43,114 nucleotides of DNA from a virus: the IMG/VR virus record IMGVR_UViG_3300045988_047887; one strand, given 5' to 3'. Below are positions 1 to 43,114 of this stretch, piece by piece; positions within the stretch are counted from its first letter, which is position 1, and every line of letters starts with the position of its first letter. Below the pieces are notes generated by a model. It was not told where the DNA came from. It saw only the letters and a list, made by a program, of their open reading frames with translations, and ran no database searches. Position numbers and translations under genes: made by a program.

Positions 1-70
1 ATCACTATCACTATCACTATCACTATCACTATCACTATCACTATCACTATCACTATCACTATCACTATCA
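1..70. repeat. (ATCACT)11 + ATCA hexanucleotide tandem repeat, left copy of the terminal overlap
   Basis: Read directly. The unit is perfect and identical to 43045-43114. Confidence 0.98.
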
Positions 71-408
71 TATAAGCATCCTTTTGTATGCAATTGCATA
101 CTTTTGCATTCATTTGTATGCTTTTGTATAGTGTTGCATGCTTCTGTATCGTTTGCATCCTTTTGCATTCCCCATCGCTTTTGTGCGTTGGCTCGCAACC
201 GTTCGCATTTTTTCTGATACTTTGTTTGGTTTCGTTCTATCTTGTCTTTGATAAACACGAATGCCATGCGCACAACTGGGTCTAGCTTTATGATTTCGCC
301 ATCCCTTGCGAAGGTGAAGAGTGCCCGAGTTAGCTGTCCGAGTTGCTCATCTGTAAGCCCCTCGATTAGCTGATAGTCTGAAGTGTATAGTATAAATGAA
401 TCGTTCAT
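1..408 (-). CDS. replication organizer, N-terminal part (DUF6291-like); the ORF runs off the window start and continues at 43114
   Basis: Hand translation from the ATG at 408-406 gives MNDSFILYTSDYQLIEGLTDEQLGQLTRALFTFARDGEI...KYQKKCERLRANAQKRWGMQKD...GCLY(DS)n with no stop down to position 1. It is absent from the ORF track because it has no stop in the window. The pattern resembles the N-domain of Bacteroidales phage replication proteins. Confidence 0.7.
   Translation of the reverse strand, partial: MNDSFILYTSDYQLIEGLTDEQLGQLTRALFTFARDGEIIKLDPVVRMAFVFIKDKIERNQTKYQKKCERLRANAQKRWGMQKDANDTEACNTIQKHTNECKSMQLHTKGCLYDSDSDSDSDSDSDSDSDSDSDSD
73..168. repeat. ten phased copies of TTTGYAT-like heptamer (10-bp period), candidate iterons or origin
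   Basis: Copies lie at 73 (taagcat), 83, 93, 103, 113, 123, 133, 143, 152 and 162. A 10-nt period cannot reflect an amino-acid repeat. Confidence 0.75.
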
Positions 409-412
409 GATT

Positions 413-589
413 TTATTCCGATAATGATAATTTCTTTTCCAGCTTCCGTTTGAGCACGGTAGCCATGCGGATTCTGTTCCGCTGGCTTGTGTCGGTCGGT
501 GCTGTCACTTTCCTACCTAGGGAAATATATTTCTCCAGTTGGGAAATTATATTCTTTAGGTCTGTCTTTGATATTTGAATGCTAGCCAT
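413..589 (-). CDS. hypothetical small protein (58 aa)
   Basis: An internal ATG (MASIQISK...) starts 12 nt after the stop of the upstream gene. The longer ORF-track version would overlap the exonuclease gene. Confidence 0.5.
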   Translation of the reverse strand: MASIQISKTDLKNIISQLEKYISLGRKVTAPTDTSQRNRIRMATVLKRKLEKKLSLSE

Positions 590-600
590 AAGCCCTGCTT

Positions 601-1542
601 TTACTTGATGAGTAATCTTCTTGCTCCCTGCACCTGCTTGATGTAGGCTGCGCATTCCTTCGGATGGTCTGCTTGGAAAGCCTTCGCATCGAACTTCTCG
701 GATGGCTTCGGTGCTTTCCACGTTGCCAGCGTCTTGCCGTTTCCGTCCACGATGCTCTCTGCGTCCCCGAAGAACAGCTTCAAGTTGTCCTCGATCTCCT
801 TCTGTCGGTTCTCCAGTGTCTTGCTCTTCTCTTTGATGTCCTTCAACTCGATAAGCATGTCACCTACTTCTGCTGTGGCTTCAATCTCCTTTCCTGCCTT
901 GTGCAGTGGAGACTTCAGGAGAACGTCTTGCGCGCTGTAGGCTGGCGGTTCTTGGTTGCCCACGATGTAGTCCAGCCAAAACTTGGTGATTTCGTCACGC
1001 ATCCAGCCGTAAAATTCGGGGTCGAAGTCGATGTCACGGTAGCCGAACTCCCTGCCTGCTGTAAGCCAGGCCAGCGCACCGTCCTTGTATTCGCCTACAC
1101 CGAGGTTCATCTGCAACTGGCAGAACCAATGCTTCGGCAGGTCGTCTGCGTCTATCTGCATCTGCGTGGTCTTGCACTCCAGTATGCTCTTGCTGGCTTC
1201 GTTGTGTGTTGCCCCGACTCTCCAGAAGGTGCGGTCAGGAGATACTCGCAAATATGGCGCATCGGTGTTCGTGATGGTGTAGTCGTCAGTCGATGCCTTG
1301 ATGATGTGGCAGTGGCTTTCTCGCTTGTAGAACTGTGCAACAGCGTCCTCAAGAATGTGTCCTGCAACCATTGCGAAGTTCTCCACCTTTGGTGGGTCGA
1401 TTCCCTTCTTGCGTCTCCACAGCTGGTATGGGGTCTCCCATGGGTTCAGTCCCAACACCGTGCCTGCTTCACTTGCACCAATTCCGTTCGAGCGGTTCTG
1501 CAACCACTCTTCTCTGTTCTTGTATTTAATTACTTGTTTCAT
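601..1542 (-). CDS. YqaJ-family viral recombinase exonuclease (PD-(D/E)XK)
   Basis: The N-terminal motif is WLQNRSNGIGASEAGTVLGLNPWETPYQLWRRKKG, followed by a downstream ILECK (ExK) motif. It is paired with a candidate annealing protein. Confidence 0.85.
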   Translation of the reverse strand: MKQVIKYKNREEWLQNRSNGIGASEAGTVLGLNPWETPYQLWRRKKGIDPPKVENFAMVAGHILEDAVAQFYKRESHCHIIKASTDDYTITNTDAPYLRVSPDRTFWRVGATHNEASKSILECKTTQMQIDADDLPKHWFCQLQMNLGVGEYKDGALAWLTAGREFGYRDIDFDPEFYGWMRDEITKFWLDYIVGNQEPPAYSAQDVLLKSPLHKAGKEIEATAEVGDMLIELKDIKEKSKTLENRQKEIEDNLKLFFGDAESIVDGNGKTLATWKAPKPSEKFDAKAFQADHPKECAAYIKQVQGARRLLIK

Positions 1543-1548
1543 TGTCTT

Positions 1549-1863
1549 TTATTTTTCTTCGTTTGCGATAAGGTATCTTCTTGCTGCTTCAATGATAATC
1601 TGGCGAAGGAATTCGTCCTTCTGCATTGTCTGAGCGAGTCCGCTTGCGATGAAGTTAGGCTTGCAGGTATAAGCAATATGGAAATCGAAGCCTTGGTGTC
1701 CTTCTTCGTCTTCATCCCCAGTTGTCTCAGCTGCCATCTGAATGAAGTTTCTCTCCTCCTTGTTTTCTTCTGCCCATGTCTTGTATGCCTTCGCTGTCTG
1801 AGCAAAGTACTTGTCGATGGTGCTCTCTCGTCTCTGATTGTCTGTTTTGTTCTGTTTGTTCAT
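1549..1863 (-). CDS. hypothetical protein (104 aa)
   Basis: The ORF is tightly packed between the exonuclease and annealing-protein genes. Confidence 0.6.
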   Translation of the reverse strand: MNKQNKTDNQRRESTIDKYFAQTAKAYKTWAEENKEERNFIQMAAETTGDEDEEGHQGFDFHIAYTCKPNFIASGLAQTMQKDEFLRQIIIEAARRYLIANEEK

Positions 1864-1973
1864 TGTTTTACTGAATGTTTATTAAAAGTTGCCACGGCTT
1901 CCCTTATTCGTGATGGGTGCCCACCCCATAGGTTGCACCGTGGCGGTTCGGGCTTATCATTATAGTAAAATGG

Positions 1974-2834
1974 CTATTTCTTCGCTGCTGTTCCAGTCTT
2001 GCCTTGGCTGCGGTTCATTGCCTTCTCTGCCTTCTGCTGTGCGCTCTCGGCTGCTGCCTGCGCCTGCTGTGCGATGGCTTCCTGCTGCTTTGGCTTTTTA
2101 AAGGTCTCCTCTACGGTGGTCGTGCCTTCCTTGATTGCGTTGTACACTCCTCCCAGCTTCTGAATGTCTTCTGCTGCGACTTCCTCGGCAGATTTCTTGC
2201 CTATGTATTCCAACAGCATAAGGTCGGTAACTTGGTAGGCTTGGAAGCAGGCGACACAACTTTTCCATTGGCTCTGTACGCCAGTCTGCTTGATGTGCTC
2301 CAGTGCCTTTGCCTGCACCTCCTTGACTACGCCTGCAATCAGTACCTGCGGCACGACCTTGCAGATTGCGTTACGCTGGGCGATAGCCACGGCTGCATTG
2401 CCAACTACCACCTGCATATCCTGCGAGAAGGTGTATCCCTTCGAGGTCAGGATGCTGCGCTTCACTTCTACAGAGTAGGCCACGTTGCTCTCGAGGTCGT
2501 GGCAGACACCCTGCGCTGTGATGGTCTTTCCATCGTTTGCGATGATGCGTCCTGCGATGCGCAGGTTCTTCCAGCAAGCCGAGATAATCTCGGTGAATCT
2601 AACACTAGGACCCTCAATAACGGAAATCTGTCCGTCCTTGCCCTTGCGCTCCAAATGATAGAAGCAGTTGTATGCTACATCATCGTCCATAGTTGCCAAG
2701 GCTACCATGTTCTCCTTGCACTGCATGATGTCTCTCGGAAACTTGTGCGCTGTGGCAATCTGTCCGTCAATCTCCGAGCGGTTGATGGCTTCGAGCATTT
2801 CGCCACCGCTTACTTGAATAATCTCATTTTCCAT
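1974..2834 (-). CDS. putative single-strand annealing recombinase (family unassigned)
   Basis: It sits with the YqaJ exonuclease (one 104-aa gene between them). It has a GNAAVAIAQRNAICKVVP-type motif and a disordered Q/A/K-rich tail. I could not place it in the RecT, ERF or Rad52 family by eye. Confidence 0.5.
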   Translation of the reverse strand: MENEIIQVSGGEMLEAINRSEIDGQIATAHKFPRDIMQCKENMVALATMDDDVAYNCFYHLERKGKDGQISVIEGPSVRFTEIISACWKNLRIAGRIIANDGKTITAQGVCHDLESNVAYSVEVKRSILTSKGYTFSQDMQVVVGNAAVAIAQRNAICKVVPQVLIAGVVKEVQAKALEHIKQTGVQSQWKSCVACFQAYQVTDLMLLEYIGKKSAEEVAAEDIQKLGGVYNAIKEGTTTVEETFKKPKQQEAIAQQAQAAAESAQQKAEKAMNRSQGKTGTAAKK

Positions 2835-2877
2835 AATTCGTTCAATTTTTGTTCAACTTATTGTTAATTAACTCTAG

Positions 2878-2954
2878 TGGAAGGCTGGGGATTCGAACCC
2901 CAGTTGGTCGCAGGTTTACTCCCACCCTTGCCTGCTGCTGGTGGACGCCCTTCC
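2878..2954 (-). other. tRNA-like element: canonical T-arm and acceptor 3' strand, non-canonical 5' two-thirds (tRNA 3' fragment or degenerate tRNA)
   Basis: The minus strand reads ...CTGGGGTTCGAATCCCCAGCCTTCCA, a 5-bp T stem with a TTCGAAT loop and a 7-nt acceptor strand. GGAAGGG 77 nt upstream pairs with the acceptor at 6 of 7 positions. No D arm or 7-nt anticodon loop can be drawn. Confidence 0.45.
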
Positions 2955-3113
2955 GTTATAGGGCACACGCTGTTTCCGCATATCAAAACTTATCAATTTA
3001 TCAATAAAAAAACAATTAAATTTAATAACCTTACTAACTGGTATGAATTTTTGCGTGCGCCCTGCCCCTACCGCTGTAGGGAAATCATATAATTGTACAC
3101 TAAAATATGTAGT

Positions 3114-6484: not shown

Positions 6485-6810
6485 ATATGGAAGATAAAAA
6501 TCTGATGTCCGCTGATGTGGATATAGTCGGTCGCTTCTTTGATGCCCTTGACCGTCTGAAGGATGACGGCTGCATAGGCGGTCTTAAAACGATAACCGAC
6601 CGGTACGGTCTCAACCGCTGGAACACAATATCCCTGCGAGACGAGCCTGCCGAGTGCTACGGTCGTTTCCGTCCGTCCTGGGTGCAGTTCCTAGTCCGTG
6701 ACTATCACGTCAACCCATACTGGCTGCTGTTAGGTTCTGGTGACTTCTACGCTGCTGGCTTCACGTCAGAAATAGTGAAAAACCTGAATAAAAACTGCAC
6801 GAAAAAATAG
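6481..6810 (+). CDS. phage CI-repressor-like HTH protein
   Basis: Its C-terminal YWLLLGSGDFY resembles the WLLTGEG ending of Phage_CI_repr-type HTH domains. It lies directly upstream of int. Confidence 0.5.
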   Translation: MNMEDKNLMSADVDIVGRFFDALDRLKDDGCIGGLKTITDRYGLNRWNTISLRDEPAECYGRFRPSWVQFLVRDYHVNPYWLLLGSGDFYAAGFTSEIVKNLNKNCTKK

Positions 6811-38463: not shown

Positions 38464-38997
38464 TTATCCGTCAAAGGCTCTGATGGTCTTCTGCAGGGTT
38501 GTCTGCGGTTTTACCTTGACGGGGAATCCTGCACATACCCACGCGAGTAGAAGTGCGTCTCGCTGGTCTTGGTTCATTCTCGGCATCTTTCCGTCTTGGC
38601 TCATGAAGTAGCCAATTTCGTCTTGTGTTATCTTTCCGTCCTTGCCTTTCCAGCACTTCTTCAAAGGCTTTATTATCTCGTATGGGATATTGTAATGCTG
38701 GCAGCACTCAACGATTAAGATTCCGGTCTGATGGTTCATTCCGGTAGAGCGTCCGATTGCTGCTGCCTTGACTGCTGTCATGAATTTACTTAGCACGTGC
38801 CAGTTGCTTTTGTTGAGCCAGCCGCCTTCAATAACGACCTTGACCTTCTTGCAGCTTTCATTCATTGCCCTTATGTAGTCAATCAAAGCAGGGAAGTTCA
38901 TCTTGTAGGCGAGAAACTTCTTGTCGTCATATACTGCACCAACTCCGCTTTCTTGGTTGTCGGGGTCGATTCCGATTATAACTGTTCCTTTTTCCAT
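38464..38997 (-). CDS. RuvC-like Holliday junction resolvase
   Basis: It has IIGIDPD, VVIEGGW and DQRDALLLAW acidic motifs in RNase H-fold order. Confidence 0.6.
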   Translation of the reverse strand: MEKGTVIIGIDPDNQESGVGAVYDDKKFLAYKMNFPALIDYIRAMNESCKKVKVVIEGGWLNKSNWHVLSKFMTAVKAAAIGRSTGMNHQTGILIVECCQHYNIPYEIIKPLKKCWKGKDGKITQDEIGYFMSQDGKMPRMNQDQRDALLLAWVCAGFPVKVKPQTTLQKTIRAFDG

Positions 38998-39459
38998 TTC
39001 GTTTTCTTTTGTTTTACTTTCGTTTTATTTTCGATTTTCTTTTTTTTTGTTATTTTCTTGAAATTTTCGTTTTAAGCCGTTATCTAGGTGTCTGTGGGTA
39101 GTTGTTCGGGTTGCGGAATCCTACGTGCGTGTGTGCGCTTGTGTGCGCTTGTGCGCTAGCTCCCTACTATTCCTATCCTCTACCCTATAGTCCCTTCTCC
39201 TTTCATCGTCTTGCAGGCTTGAAACGGAAAAATCGAGGGAGTGCTTGGCGATTTGCAAATAGGTGAATATCTTATATCGAACGAGTTTATTCTGCAAACA
39301 CTCCCTCTTTGGATTTTGGATTTAATATAATAGCAAGAAAATTCTCAAATGGGATTCTTGCCCTAGACTGTCTTTCTGTTTATTTCTTCATGTTCCACCT
39401 CGCTTTCTTTGTTTAGAGTGGGCAGCGTTGATGGTCTGCCCAGCTGGTTAAAAACTTAT
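38998..39459. repeat. 460-bp non-coding region with several repeat classes (ori or ncRNA candidate)
   Basis: TTTCGTTTT-type units lie at 38998, 39018, 39028 and 39065. GTGTGCGCTT occurs twice in tandem at 39131-39150, with partial copies on each side. There are a CCTA-rich tract, a GAGGGAGTG/CACTCCCTC inverted repeat (39235-39243 and 39299-39307), and hairpins at 39333-39361 and 39420-39441. Confidence 0.6.
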
Positions 39460-42396: not shown

Positions 42397-43114
42397 TTAT
42401 TTTTCGGGCTTCCAGTTGATGCCCAGCCGCTGCAGAACTCCCTGCTCGTAGAATCTTGCGAGTGAATCCTTGGCTGGCTTGTTCCGTGGGTTCTTCTTCA
42501 AGTCGTCCAGGTTCTGCTGTATTACCCATCTGAACTTGTCGTCTCGGCTCTGCTGGCTCGATGGCTGCTGGTGCTTGGCTTGCTCGTAACGTTCCCCGAT
42601 GCTCGGTCTTTCCGTTGCCGCTGGATCCTGCGCCTTGGCTGCTGCTGGCTGCTGGCTTCCTGCTGGCTGCTCGTTGTCGTAGTTGCCTTCAAGCACCTTC
42701 GGGAAATTGGAAGGGCACATCATCCAGTCGAAGCTGGCAACCCAACCCTTGCCGTTCTTGCCGTTCATGAAGTCACTTGACATGGCTTTGTCGATTGCCT
42801 TGTAGACCTTCTGAACGTCCCCTCCGTATTCCCTTATCCTTGCACGCACATTGCTCTTGCGCTGGTCGCTCATCAAGGTCAACCTTCGCATTGCGCTGCC
42901 CGATTGGTCATGCTTGGCGTTCCAGTATTCCTTGATAGCCGCAAAATCAATCTTGGCGCATCGTCTGGCTGGGTCAACTTTCGGATTTTCCGAAATTGAC
43001 AAACCTTCTTTAGAAGGTATATTATTATCTGTTTCTTTAGAAACATCACTATCACTATCACTATCACTATCACTATCACTATCACTATCACTATCACTAT
43101 CACTATCACTATCA
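42397..43114 (-). CDS. replication organizer, C-terminal part (phage conserved C-terminus, DnaD-like)
   Basis: The AGT/GAT codon phase of the repeat continues as GTT TCT AAA... into ORF 42397..43002 with no stop. The motif SFDWMMCPSNFPKVLEGNY is typical of phage replisome-organizer C-terminal domains. The joined product is about 351 aa. Confidence 0.7.
   Translation of the reverse strand, partial: DSDSDSDSDSDSDSDSDSDSDSDVSKETDNNIPSKEGLSISENPKVDPARRCAKIDFAAIKEYWNAKHDQSGSAMRRLTLMSDQRKSNVRARIREYGGDVQKVYKAIDKAMSSDFMNGKNGKGWVASFDWMMCPSNFPKVLEGNYDNEQPAGSQQPAAAKAQDPAATERPSIGERYEQAKHQQPSSQQSRDDKFRWVIQQNLDDLKKNPRNKPAKDSLARFYEQGVLQRLGINWKPEK
43045..43114. repeat. (ATCACT)11 + ATCA hexanucleotide tandem repeat, right copy of the terminal overlap
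   Basis: Read directly. It is identical to 1-70. Confidence 0.98.

What the first reader, a model, noticed from the sequence alone, without database searches (positions are those of the whole stretch)
73..168. Ten TTTGYAT units at an exact 10-bp period inside the replication gene: candidate origin iterons
T(T/C)TG(C/T)AT-like heptamers start at 73, 83, 93, 103, 113, 123, 133, 143, 152 and 162. All lie on the same helical face, and they sit directly next to the ATCACT microsatellite. Because 10 nt is not a multiple of 3, the periodicity is imposed at the DNA level on top of coding sequence (aa ~81-113 of the replication organizer). The arrangement parallels lambda ori, whose iterons lie inside gene O at the inter-domain linker, and the SPP1 oriL inside gene 38.
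Basis: partly seen in the sequence, partly recalled or inferred. Interest (0 to 1): 0.65.

Follow-up and report, generated by a model that had tools for sequence, protein, structure and literature searches.

The report
Phage replication origin inside initiator gene
A 100-base stretch of ten short DNA repeats, one per turn of the helix, sits inside the replication-initiator gene of a temperate gut phage and is very probably its origin of replication; the same layout recurs in more than 130 relatives and probably in a large uncharacterised protein family (DUF6291).

Summary
Ten units with core ATRCAAA on the coding (minus) strand lie at 70-168, eight steps of 10 nt and one of 9. It is the strongest 10-nt periodicity in the window (z = 9.2), and synonymous-codon resampling never reproduces it (0/20000).

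The array lies in a predicted disordered linker of a gene that wraps around the window ends. The gene has an N-terminal DUF6291 domain and a C-terminal part that matches phage replication-initiator and helicase-loader families.

All 133 distinct related genes, bar one 32%-identical relative handled separately, carry an array of roughly 10-nt period at the same place, with at least nine different core motifs. Each core co-varies with residues 70-79 of a long basic helix just upstream. Core positions vary less than spacers whatever the codon position (p = 2e-5).

After the array come an AT-rich coding microsatellite and an invariant 75-nt block with three palindromes. One palindrome shows compensatory changes.

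The layout (iterons, AT-rich tract, palindromes) matches origins embedded in initiator genes, as in lambda O, SPP1 gene 38 and TP901-1 ORF13. The protein fold and the 10-bp head-to-tail iterons are different.

No binding or replication data exist, so function is inferred. I rate it a new variant of a known kind.

The parts
172..408 (-). Codons 1-79 of the initiator gene: the DUF6291 N-terminal domain. The start ATG is at 408-406. The gene runs leftwards through position 1 and continues at the window end.
   Evidence: Pfam PF19808, 88.9 bits against a cut-off of 27.2, aa 4-79. Translation. The AF2 model has pLDDT 92 with helices 9-15, 20-36 and 44-85. BFVD matches to DUF6291, DnaD and replisome-organiser phage proteins at TM about 0.8.
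172..234 (-). Basic distal half of the long helix (aa 59-79, RNQTKYQKKCERLRANAQKRW). This is the inferred iteron-recognition element, with N74-A75 as a candidate specificity position.
   Evidence: Residues 70-79 co-vary with the iteron core in all 133 distinct genes. Genes with NAxKRW carry ATGC-rich arrays and genes with NIxKRW carry ATAC arrays. Across family representatives, Ala against Val/Ile gives Fisher p = 7e-8. The role in binding is an inference.
70..168 (-). Iteron array: ten head-to-tail units with consensus ATRCAAAAGN, at steps of 10 nt (one of 9). It encodes aa 81-113 of a disordered linker.
   Evidence: AF2 pLDDT is below 50 for aa 81-156. Polymorphism in core against spacer positions.
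88..99 (.). Perfect 12-bp palindrome ATGCAATTGCAT, formed by one inverted core inside the array near its microsatellite-proximal end.
   Evidence: a minus-strand TTGCAT at 88-93 next to a plus-strand one at 94-99. Present in all type A, A1 and A2 arrays printed.
66..76 (-). Junction CTTATATGATA between the last, degenerate unit and the microsatellite. The same boundary (YTATATGATA) occurs in arrays of unrelated core types.
1..70 (-). (AGTGAT)n microsatellite on the coding strand, first copy at the window start. It encodes the (SD)n acidic linker and is the proposed DNA-unwinding element.
   Evidence: TRF: 11.7 perfect copies. The window ends overlap in register by up to 70 nt, and both halves read (SD)n in frame. 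67% AT. Length and type vary among relatives: SD, ND, or a 30-nt NDNVYDNEYV unit.
43045..43114 (-). The same microsatellite at the window end. It is either the same 70 nt assembled twice or a continuation; the true copy number is not resolved.
42973..43047 (.). A 75-nt block just after the microsatellite, containing three palindromes: 43031-43044 GTTTCTAAAGAAAC, 43004-43017 CCTTCTAAAGAAGG, and 42973-43000 GTCAATTTCGGAAAATCCGAAAGTTGAC (coding strand). It also contains an 81% AT spacer at 43018-43044.
   Evidence: Among loci with this allele there are no synonymous differences over aa 134-157 (about 0.03 in the next window), against 0.05-0.49 elsewhere in the gene. DNA fold -16.2 kcal/mol, z = -5.7. 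Palindrome 1 has 7 sequence versions, 100% paired, with 4 of 6 pairs changed on both sides and 0/500 shuffles reaching that. TTCTAAAGAA occurs within 100 nt after the microsatellite in 103/106 loci. Coordinates.
42397..43044 (-). C-terminal part of the initiator gene (stop at 42397-42399). This helical domain is the proposed contact with the host or phage helicase machinery.
   Evidence: PHROG phrog_10469 'DnaD-like helicase loader' 2.8e-29, phrog_19658 and phrog_345 'replication initiation (O-like)'. At least three alleles assort independently of iteron type. Distant relatives occur in Prevotellaceae genomes.

Best explanation
The array is the initiator-binding part of the phage's origin of replication, embedded in the initiator's own gene.

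Proposed mechanism. Steps 1-4 are inferred; the anatomy is shown.
1. The protein's DUF6291 N-domain binds one ATRCAAA core per helical turn through the basic end of its 42-residue helix (aa 59-79). About nine or ten copies form a nucleoprotein filament or wrap.
2. The resulting stress opens the adjacent AT-rich tract. This is the (AGTGAT)n microsatellite plus the 81% AT spacer beyond it.
3. The conserved palindromes next to that tract extrude as hairpins. They stabilise the opening or mark the site for helicase or primase loading.
4. The C-terminal domain recruits the helicase machinery. No phage helicase or loader gene was recognised, so this is probably the host's.

The iterons lie within about 30 nt of the codons for residues 70-79, so binding site and specificity determinant are inherited as one cassette. 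The population carries at least nine such cassettes on otherwise 85-95% identical genomes, like the different ori/O specificities of lambdoid phages.

The array must stay in frame, so the protein tolerates it as a disordered linker. Copy-number changes seen are 30 nt (three units); in type C1 they are 39 nt.
For: DNA-level constraint:
- The period is 10 nt, not a multiple of 3, and units start in all three codon positions.
- Synonymous resampling never reproduces it, 0/20000.
- Across four array types, 12/191 core sites are polymorphic against 31/137 spacer sites. Fisher p = 2e-5, and it holds at codon positions 1 and 3.

Conserved as a feature, not as a sequence:
- All 133 distinct related genes bar the 32%-identical L146 were classified into nine array types at the same place. 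The cores are ATRCAAA, TGCAAA, ATACSAA, ATACGAM, ATACARA, NCACGAA, CACGAACGTK and AACC/GGTT.
- Representatives of most types peak at 10/20/30 nt. Type D peaks at 19-21 and 30 nt and C1 peaks only weakly at 10 nt.
- L146 itself has ATAACAA six times at 9-10-nt steps (with one 20-nt gap), followed by (GTTGAT)n.

Cassette behaviour:
- Within +/-3 kb, only gene nt about 140-375 differs by array type.
- One N-domain lineage carries three core types.
- C-domain alleles assort freely.

Co-variation of helix and core:
- LRANA[QR]KRW goes with TGCAAA in three N-domain lineages. RNRENIRKRW goes with ATAC[CG]A, and KNRQIALERE with CACGAA.
- NAxKRW genes have 5.8 ATGC and 2.05 ATAC per array. NIxKRW genes have 0.28 and 7.66.
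- In family representatives, Ala goes with ATGC-type peptide footprints in 16 against 8. Val/Ile goes with ATAC-type footprints in 35 against 1, p = 7e-8.
- In the window the RANAQ codons differ at three synonymous sites from relatives yet keep the peptide.

Origin-like surroundings:
- The linker peaks at 78% AT against 53% for the locus. It is the AT-richest 50-nt window of the locus in 46/106 loci.
- The block with three palindromes is invariant, and palindrome 1 shows compensatory change.

Protein context:
- DUF6291 N-domain. PHROG initiator and helicase-loader matches.
- Structural relatives named DnaD domain protein or replisome organizer.
- The linker is predicted disordered.
- The gene lies in a recombination and replication module with a RecE-like exonuclease and a Holliday-junction resolvase.

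Precedent:
- Lambda ori, with iterons and an AT-rich tract, lies in the middle of gene O (PMC7466680, PMC5043065).
- SPP1 gp38 binds direct repeats inside gene 38 next to an AT-rich unwinding element (PMC6316719).
- TP901-1 ORF13 and Tuc2009 Rep2009 bind direct repeats inside their own genes, which serve as ori (PMC8965321).
- Plasmid iterons are phased with the helical repeat (PMC5043065).
Against: - No experiment shows binding, unwinding or initiation.
- GC skew is uninformative, and read data could not be used.
- A 7-bp core at every helical turn is much shorter and denser than characterised iterons of 17-22 bp. It is not obvious that an 80-residue domain fits once per turn.
- The N-domain is not a winged helix and has no solved relative. 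DNA binding is inferred only from basic composition and co-variation.
- Helix and core are only about 30 nt apart, so physical linkage could explain part of the co-variation. In types A1 and A2 the codons for N-A (AAT GCA) themselves contain the ATGCA core.
- The sequences compared are related and not independent, so the Fisher tests overstate significance.
- A second repeat-rich, non-coding region at 38998-39459 has not been excluded as an origin.
- No DnaA box lies nearby.
Confidence: 0.7

Rival explanations
1. The array is a phased protein-binding platform with a different job. It could serve autoregulation or a transcriptional roadblock of the replication operon. It could be an incompatibility or exclusion decoy that titrates initiators of competing phages. 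It could be a centromere-like site such as parC of plasmid R1. Replication would then start elsewhere.
For: Phased repeats of 10-11 bp are also typical of type II partition centromeres (my own knowledge). Cloned phage origins act as decoys, the PER phenotype (PMC8965321). The diversity of cassettes would fit competition between co-resident phages. Nothing tested here distinguishes binding for initiation from binding for control.
Against: The phage encodes a tyrosine integrase and no recognisable partition genes. The array is followed by an AT-rich tract and conserved palindromes, which a pure operator or centromere does not need. It sits inside the initiator gene exactly as in proven origins (PMC7466680, PMC6316719, PMC8965321). 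Known origins also act as decoys, so that role does not exclude an origin.
Confidence: 0.1
2. The true origin is the 460-bp non-coding region at 38998-39459. The in-gene array is then a secondary origin (like SPP1 oriR and oriL) or an accessory site.
For: The region holds the only other tandem array in the window that scores well: an 11-nt T-rich repeat at 38997-39042. It also has three GTGCGCT repeats and inverted repeats. It is the second-best region for 10/20/30-nt autocorrelation. SPP1 has two origins (PMC6316719).
Against: It contains no copy of the ATRCAAA core, so the initiator specificity inferred here has no target there. The A/T-rich tract lies directly upstream of the resolvase start codon and may simply be a leader or promoter region (my inference). 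Its conservation and variation in relatives were not examined.
Confidence: 0.1
3. The signal is only protein-level. A repeat-rich disordered linker expands and contracts by slippage, and the 10-nt period is a by-product with no DNA function.
For: The region is predicted disordered. It lies next to a slippage-prone microsatellite and changes copy number. TRF scores period 30 (10 aa) highest.
Against: Autocorrelation at 10 and 20 nt equals that at 30 nt. The same motif is read in three frames. Codon choice is far from random, 0/20000. Core positions are constrained at codon positions 1 and 3 alike. Peptides differ completely between types while a period near 10 nt persists.
Confidence: 0.04
4. 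The + strand TTTG(C/T)AT units act as a cluster of antisense Bacteroidota-type promoter elements (-33 TTTG, -7 TAnnTTTG), or as intrinsically curved DNA formed by phased A-tracts.
For: The + strand of the type A array contains TTTG at every turn, and at least one match to TAnnTTTG (TACTTTTG at 99-106, read). CAAAAG tracts are phased at 10 bp. The promoter consensus is from my own knowledge.
Against: Arrays of types C, C1 and D have neither TTTG nor A-tracts, yet keep the position and a period near 10 nt. No conserved antisense gene follows. The scan tool available covers sigma-70 promoters only, so this was not tested directly.
Confidence: 0.04

Closest known systems
Bacteriophage lambda ori within gene O (lambdoid ori/O specificity modules)
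   Same: The origin lies in the middle of the initiator gene. It has an array of initiator-binding repeats followed by an AT-rich tract (PMC7466680, PMC5043065). Closely related phages differ in iteron sequence together with the adjoining N-terminal part of the initiator, while the C-terminal part is exchangeable (here).
   Different: Lambda iterons are four to six imperfect inverted repeats of 19 bp (PMC7466680). Here there are about ten direct repeats of 10 bp with a 7-bp core. Pfam reports only DUF6291, not the lambda O family, and the fold has no solved relative. No P-like loader gene was recognised.
SPP1 oriL inside gene 38 (replisome organizer G38P)
   Same: Direct repeats inside the organizer's own gene, next to an AT-rich DNA-unwinding element (PMC6316719). 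The surrounding module also holds a 5'-3' exonuclease and a Holliday-junction resolvase.
   Different: No sequence similarity was detected. SPP1 encodes its own loader and DnaB-type helicase, and it has a second origin with the same repeats. Here no such genes and no second copy of the motif were found.
Lactococcal P335 phages: TP901-1 ORF13 and Tuc2009 Rep2009
   Same: Replisome organizers of temperate phages that bind direct repeats inside their cognate genes. Those repeats serve as ori and give phage-encoded resistance when cloned (PMC8965321).
   Different: The host phylum differs (Firmicutes against probable Prevotellaceae) and so does the N-terminal domain family. I could not read the primary papers, so repeat length and phasing were not compared.
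Iteron origins of theta plasmids (P1, F, RK2, R6K, pSC101)
   Same: [quoted passage not shown]
   Different: Plasmid iterons are longer (17-22 bp, my own knowledge) and intergenic. They are bound by winged-helix Rep monomers, usually with DnaA boxes nearby. None of these holds here.
Pfam DUF6291 (PF19808), family of unknown function
   Same: The N-domain is a clear member (88.9 bits). BFVD models of other DUF6291 proteins superpose at TM about 0.8.
   Different: The family has no assigned function, and no paper in the library mentions it. This work proposes that it is the origin-binding module of a large class of phage initiators.

Membership tests
Origin embedded in the initiator gene (lambda O / SPP1 G38P / TP901-1 ORF13 kind) | Array of repeated sites inside the coding sequence of the replication initiator, in an inter-domain region | tested here: met
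   Ten units at 70-168 encode aa 81-113. They lie between the DUF6291 domain and the C-terminal domain, in a segment with pLDDT below 50.
Origin embedded in the initiator gene (lambda O / SPP1 G38P / TP901-1 ORF13 kind) | AT-rich unwinding tract next to the repeats | tested here: met
   The microsatellite is 67% AT and the spacer beyond it 81% AT. The linker maximum is 78% against 53% for the locus, and it is the AT-richest window in 46/106 loci. Actual unwinding was not tested.
Origin embedded in the initiator gene (lambda O / SPP1 G38P / TP901-1 ORF13 kind) | The gene product binds the repeats and replication starts there | not testable with these tools
   This needs EMSA or footprinting and an ori-plasmid assay or marker-frequency mapping.
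Origin embedded in the initiator gene (lambda O / SPP1 G38P / TP901-1 ORF13 kind) | Repeat sequence and the adjoining part of the initiator change together among related phages | tested here: met
   Residues 70-79 co-vary with the core type in 133 distinct genes. No other region within +/-3 kb differs by type.
Lambda O protein family and lambda-type iterons | Iterons are 19-bp imperfect inverted repeats | tested here: not met
   The units are 10-bp direct repeats with a 7-bp core, and only one inverted pair occurs (88-99). The lambda feature is from PMC7466680.
Lambda O protein family and lambda-type iterons | Sequence or fold homology of the DNA-binding domain to lambda O | tested here: not met
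   Pfam gives only DUF6291. There are no PDB relatives by sequence or fold. The PHROG 'replication initiation O-like' matches cover only aa 83-264, not the N-domain.
Plasmid iteron origins (Rep/iteron theta replicons) | Direct repeats phased with the helical repeat | tested here: met
   Autocorrelation peaks at 10, 20 and 30 nt. The family feature is from PMC5043065.
Plasmid iteron origins (Rep/iteron theta replicons) | Winged-helix Rep initiator and DnaA boxes at the origin | tested here: not met
   The N-domain is a three-helix unit with a 42-residue helix, at pLDDT 92. No DnaA box with at most one mismatch lies nearer than position 6516.
Pfam DUF6291 (PF19808) | HMM match above the curated gathering score | tested here: met
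   88.9 bits against 27.2, aa 4-79, covering profile positions 1-76 of 79.
Type II partition centromere (parC-like phased repeats) | Phased 10-11-bp repeats placed upstream of a parMR-type operon | tested here: not met
   Phasing is present, but the array is inside the initiator gene. No partition gene was recognised among the neighbours, and the phage has an integrase.

The most novel reading that the evidence does not exclude
DUF6291 proteins are a large, unrecognised class of phage replication initiators with about 3,900 clusters at 50% identity. Their origin always lies inside the gene as a portable cassette made of three parts.
- A basic recognition helix ending in NxxKRW.
- A head-to-tail array of 10-bp iterons read in all three frames.
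- A coding microsatellite that acts as a length-variable unwinding element.

A single helix residue would set one base of the iteron: Ala75 tolerates G or A at core position 3, and Val/Ile demands A. Origin specificity could then be read from, and re-programmed in, the sequence. Slippage of the microsatellite would tune origin firing.
Probability: 0.25. Interest if true: 0.75.

Novelty: new variant of a known kind. Interest (0 to 1): 0.6.

Why it matters
Origins of replication are almost never annotated in metagenomic phage genomes, and none is characterised for phages of Prevotellaceae or other gut Bacteroidota.

If the reading is right, a simple sequence signature locates the origin and the initiator in thousands of phage genomes and gives DUF6291 a function. 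The signature is a DUF6291 domain, then 10-nt phased repeats, then an acidic coding microsatellite.

The natural set of at least nine helix/iteron pairs on near-identical backgrounds offers a ready-made system. It could be used to study how initiator and origin specificity co-evolve, and how related temperate phages avoid replicon interference.

The proposed one-residue, one-base rule is directly testable.

Such a cassette might also provide orthogonal replicons for genetic tools in gut anaerobes.

Tried and rejected
- GC and cumulative skew: the skew follows the transcription strand, because nearly all genes are on the minus strand. It gives no origin signal.
- Known phages: blastn of 1-3000 against 50,697 GenBank phage records found nothing.
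- Full-length AF2 model: poor (pLDDT 56), and Foldseek against the PDB was meaningless.
- N-domain model: good (pLDDT 92), but it has no PDB relative (best E = 1.1). PDB sequence searches were also empty.
- Rfam on the palindrome block and on the whole window: nothing above threshold. No tRNAs.
- NCBIfam: only spurious matches of the (SD)n run to staphylococcal Sdr/Clf adhesins.
- DnaA boxes: none near the array.
- A neighbouring gene that co-varies with the array type: none within +/-3 kb.
- DNA for distant DUF6291 subfamilies: P0166 gave nothing. P0203 gave only an HNH-fusion protein without an array.
- Literature: DUF6291 appears in no paper. The primary paper on the phage r1t organizer (PMC136552) is not held.
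- My first pairing register for palindrome 1 was off by one column. It was corrected.
- 10-aa periodicity of linker peptides in family representatives was too weak a proxy, because the arrays are short. I replaced it with three-frame footprint counts.
Full report
**1. What the window is**

The 43,114-nt window begins and ends inside the same perfect (ATCACT)n microsatellite (1-70 and 43045-43114). The two ends match in register for every overlap of 4+6k nt up to 70. I take it to be a circular phage contig cut inside the repeat.

A minus-strand gene starts at ATG 408-406 and runs through position 1. It continues at 43114 and stops at 42397-42399. Both halves read (SD)n in the same frame.

The reconstructed product is about 351 aa; the SD copy number is unresolved. 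It has an N-terminal DUF6291 domain (PF19808, 88.9 bits, aa 4-79). Its C-terminal part matches PHROG families named DnaD-like helicase loader (2.8e-29) and replication initiation or O-like proteins.

The neighbouring genes are:
- a RecE-like exonuclease and a Holliday-junction resolvase;
- a tyrosine integrase and a regulator.

So this is a temperate phage. Distant relatives of the C-domain occur in Prevotellaceae genomes, which suggests the host group. No phage helicase, loader or primase was recognised.

**2. The observation**

It is confirmed.
- On the coding strand ten units with consensus ATRCAAAAGN occupy 70-168. Eight steps are 10 nt and one is 9 nt; the last unit is degenerate.
- A three-unit phased pattern occurs 5 times against 0 in shuffles.
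- The array has the strongest 10/20/30-nt autocorrelation in the window (z = 9.2). Lags 10, 20 and 30 are equal, so the fundamental period is 10 nt, not 30.
- Units start in codon positions 1,2,2,3,1,2,3,1,2,3. The same DNA motif is therefore read as MQK/IQK, as x-A/T-N/K, and as x-C-K/N.
- Resampling synonymous codons for the same peptide never reproduces the periodicity or the eight ATRCAA cores, 0 of 20000.

The DNA pattern is thus not a passive result of the peptide.

**3. Relatives**

A protein search found 2,015 homologues, the top ones 81-93% identical. Their alignment shows two well-conserved domains flanking a hypervariable segment at aa 80-113.

Three scans of viral contigs gave 140 loci holding 133 distinct gene sequences. 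All but L146, a 32%-identical relative described at the end of this section, were classified. Each has a repeat array at the same place, between the end of the DUF6291 domain and an acidic coding micro- or minisatellite. Representatives of most types peak at 10, 20 and 30 nt; type D peaks at 19-21 and 30 nt, and C1 peaks only weakly at 10 nt.

The core differs by type:

| Type | Core |
|---|---|
| A (this window) | ATRCAAA |
| A1, A2 | TGCAAA, with palindromes |
| B | ATACSAA |
| B2 | ATACGAM |
| E | ATACARA |
| C | NCACGAA |
| C1 | CACGAACGTK |
| D | AACC/GGTT |

The encoded peptides are unrelated between types.

Copy-number variants seen differ by 30 nt (three units); in type C1 they differ by 39 nt.

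Within four types, polymorphic sites are depleted at core phases: 12/191 against 31/137 at spacer phases (Fisher p = 2e-5). The depletion holds at codon positions 1 and 3. The sequences are related, so the p-value is only indicative.

L146 itself shows ATAACAA six times at 9-10-nt steps (with one 20-nt gap), followed by a (GTTGAT)n repeat.

**4. Cassette structure and co-variation**

A scan of +/-3 kb for association with array type finds only gene nt about 140-375. No neighbouring gene co-varies.

A cross-tabulation shows the following.
- One N-domain lineage (aa 11-15 DYQLI) carries types A, B and C. Other lineages carry A1/B2/E or B2/C1/D.
- At least three C-domain alleles assort freely with array type.
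- Residues 70-79 co-vary with the core:
  - LRANA[QR]KRW with TGCAAA-type cores, in three N-domain lineages;
  - RNRENIRKRW with ATAC[CG]A;
  - KNRQIALERE with CACGAA;
  - RWRANG[RK]KGG with AACC/GGTT.

At the DNA level, 61 NAxKRW genes average 5.8 ATGC and 2.05 ATAC per array. The 47 NIxKRW genes average 0.28 and 7.66.

In the window the RANAQ codons differ at three synonymous sites from those of types A1 and A2. They no longer contain the motif, yet the peptide is kept. That argues for selection on the peptide.

The AF2 model of aa 1-86 is confident (pLDDT 92). It places residues 59-79 in the distal half of a 42-residue helix that projects from a small helical unit. I infer that this basic helix reads the iteron core. 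Physical linkage (about 30 nt) remains an alternative explanation for part of the co-variation.

**5. What follows the array**

The junction YTATATGATA is shared by unrelated array types. After it come these elements.
- An AT-rich coding repeat: (AGTGAT)n, (AATGAT)n or a 30-nt unit. The linker reaches 78% AT on average against 53% for the loci. It is the AT-richest 50-nt window of the locus in 46/106 loci.
- A 75-nt block at 42973-43047, directly after the repeat. Among 20 distinct loci with this allele it has no synonymous difference over aa 134-157. The rest of the gene shows 0.05-0.49.
- Three hairpins formed by that block (-16.2 kcal/mol, z = -5.7).

The first palindrome exists in seven sequence versions:

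| Version |
|---|
| GTTTCT..AGAAAC |
| GTTTCTAACGAAAC, with a changed loop base |
| a seventh that differs only in flanking bases |
| GCAAGT..ACTTGC |
| GCTAC..GTAGC |
| GTTAC..GTAAC |
| GTTAGC..GCTAAC |

All are fully paired. Four of six pairs are changed on both sides, no shuffle reaches this, and all slid controls are at or below 50% paired.

TTCTAAAGAA occurs within 100 nt after the repeat in 103/106 loci.

The order (repeats, AT-rich tract, palindromes) is that of a replication origin. Whether the hairpins act in single-stranded DNA or in the mRNA cannot be decided here.

**6. The wider family**

Searching aa 1-80 against 1.84 billion cluster representatives gives 3,921 clusters at E <= 1e-3.
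- Of 117 representatives of at least 170 aa, 81 have an acidic dipeptide run after the domain. Only 14 shuffled controls do.
- Thirteen representatives with unrelated C-terminal parts share the linker peptide DTxVY[DE][GR]I[RQ]xxT[KN]HTD. This is what ATAC cores at 10-nt spacing encode in three frames.
- The residue after the conserved Asn of NxxKRW predicts the footprint type. Ala goes with ATGC in 16 against 8. Val/Ile goes with ATAC in 35 against 1 (p = 7e-8). DT-type microsatellites inflate the ATAC counts in some Ala cases.
- BFVD structural matches to the N-domain model (TM about 0.8) include proteins named DnaD domain protein, replisome organizer, and replication initiation and membrane attachment.
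- One DUF6291-like domain fused to an HNH nuclease has no array. The domain is therefore not always tied to an array.

**7. Interpretation**

The best explanation is an origin of replication embedded in the initiator gene, with confidence 0.7.
- The initiator binds the phased cores.
- The AT-rich repeat melts.
- The palindromes assist opening or loading.
- The C-domain brings in the helicase machinery.

The literature shows the same arrangement in several systems:
- lambda ori in gene O (PMC7466680, PMC5043065);
- TP901-1 ORF13 and Tuc2009 Rep2009 (PMC8965321).

Plasmid iterons are phased with the helix (PMC5043065).

The differences are these:
- The iterons are 10-bp head-to-tail units with a 7-bp core.
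- The DNA-binding domain is a new fold with no solved relative.
- The presumed unwinding element is a coding microsatellite.

The rivals are less likely. They are a binding array with another role, a true origin at 38998-39459, a purely protein-level repeat, and an antisense promoter cluster or curved DNA. They are set out with their evidence in the rival explanations.

**8. Verdict**

It is a new variant of a known kind. Interest is 0.6. The value lies less in this one locus than in the family-wide signature and the testable helix-iteron code.

Noticed in passing
window 42973-43047: A 75-nt block right after the microsatellite has no variation at all among 20 distinct related loci. It holds three palindromes, and the first keeps its pairing through four compensatory double changes in seven sequence versions.
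   Followed up: yes
window 38993-39459: A 460-bp non-coding region between the Holliday-junction resolvase gene and the upstream gene. It holds a T-rich 11-nt tandem array (38997-39042), three GTGCGCT-type repeats (39125-39157) and a 13-nt inverted repeat (39235-39247 / 39295-39307). It may be a promoter or leader, or a second origin.
   Followed up: partly
window 42397-42972 and loci L001-L145: The C-terminal domain of the initiator exists in at least three strongly different alleles (signatures RCAKIDF, EIDYxAIKDYW, KIDYVGIKEYW). They combine freely with iteron types. The microsatellite type (SD, ND or NDNVY) follows the N-domain lineage instead.
   Followed up: partly
protein P0071 (alignment A1): One homologue carries two arrays in tandem: an A2-type N-domain and array, then ...HANAQKRW followed by a complete type A array. 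It looks like a recombinant joined within the shared ANAQ coding sequence.
   Followed up: no
L025 and L027 (IMGVR_UViG_3300029928_000008, 84,378 nt): One 84-kb viral contig holds two different copies of the initiator gene about 41 kb apart (types A3 and A2). It may be a head-to-tail join of two related phage genomes, or an assembly chimera.
   Followed up: no
L147 (IMGVR_UViG_3300020045_004075): A DUF6291-like N-terminal domain is fused to an HNH endonuclease domain, with no repeat array and no acidic repeat.
   Followed up: partly
L031 (Prevotellaceae MAG, CAMJFC010000084.1): A distant relative of the C-terminal domain has a different N-terminal part and a linker of tandem DAGGTAPV repeats. 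This is another repetitive inter-domain linker in a putative initiator.
   Followed up: no
window 88-285 (+): A 65-aa antisense ORF overlaps the array, with a hydrophobic, Cys-rich translation. It is most likely a by-product of the repeats and not a gene.
   Followed up: no
reconstructed initiator protein, aa 115-141: The (SD)n run gives weak matches to staphylococcal Sdr/Clf adhesin models in NCBIfam. This is a low-complexity artefact that could mislead automatic annotation.
   Followed up: yes
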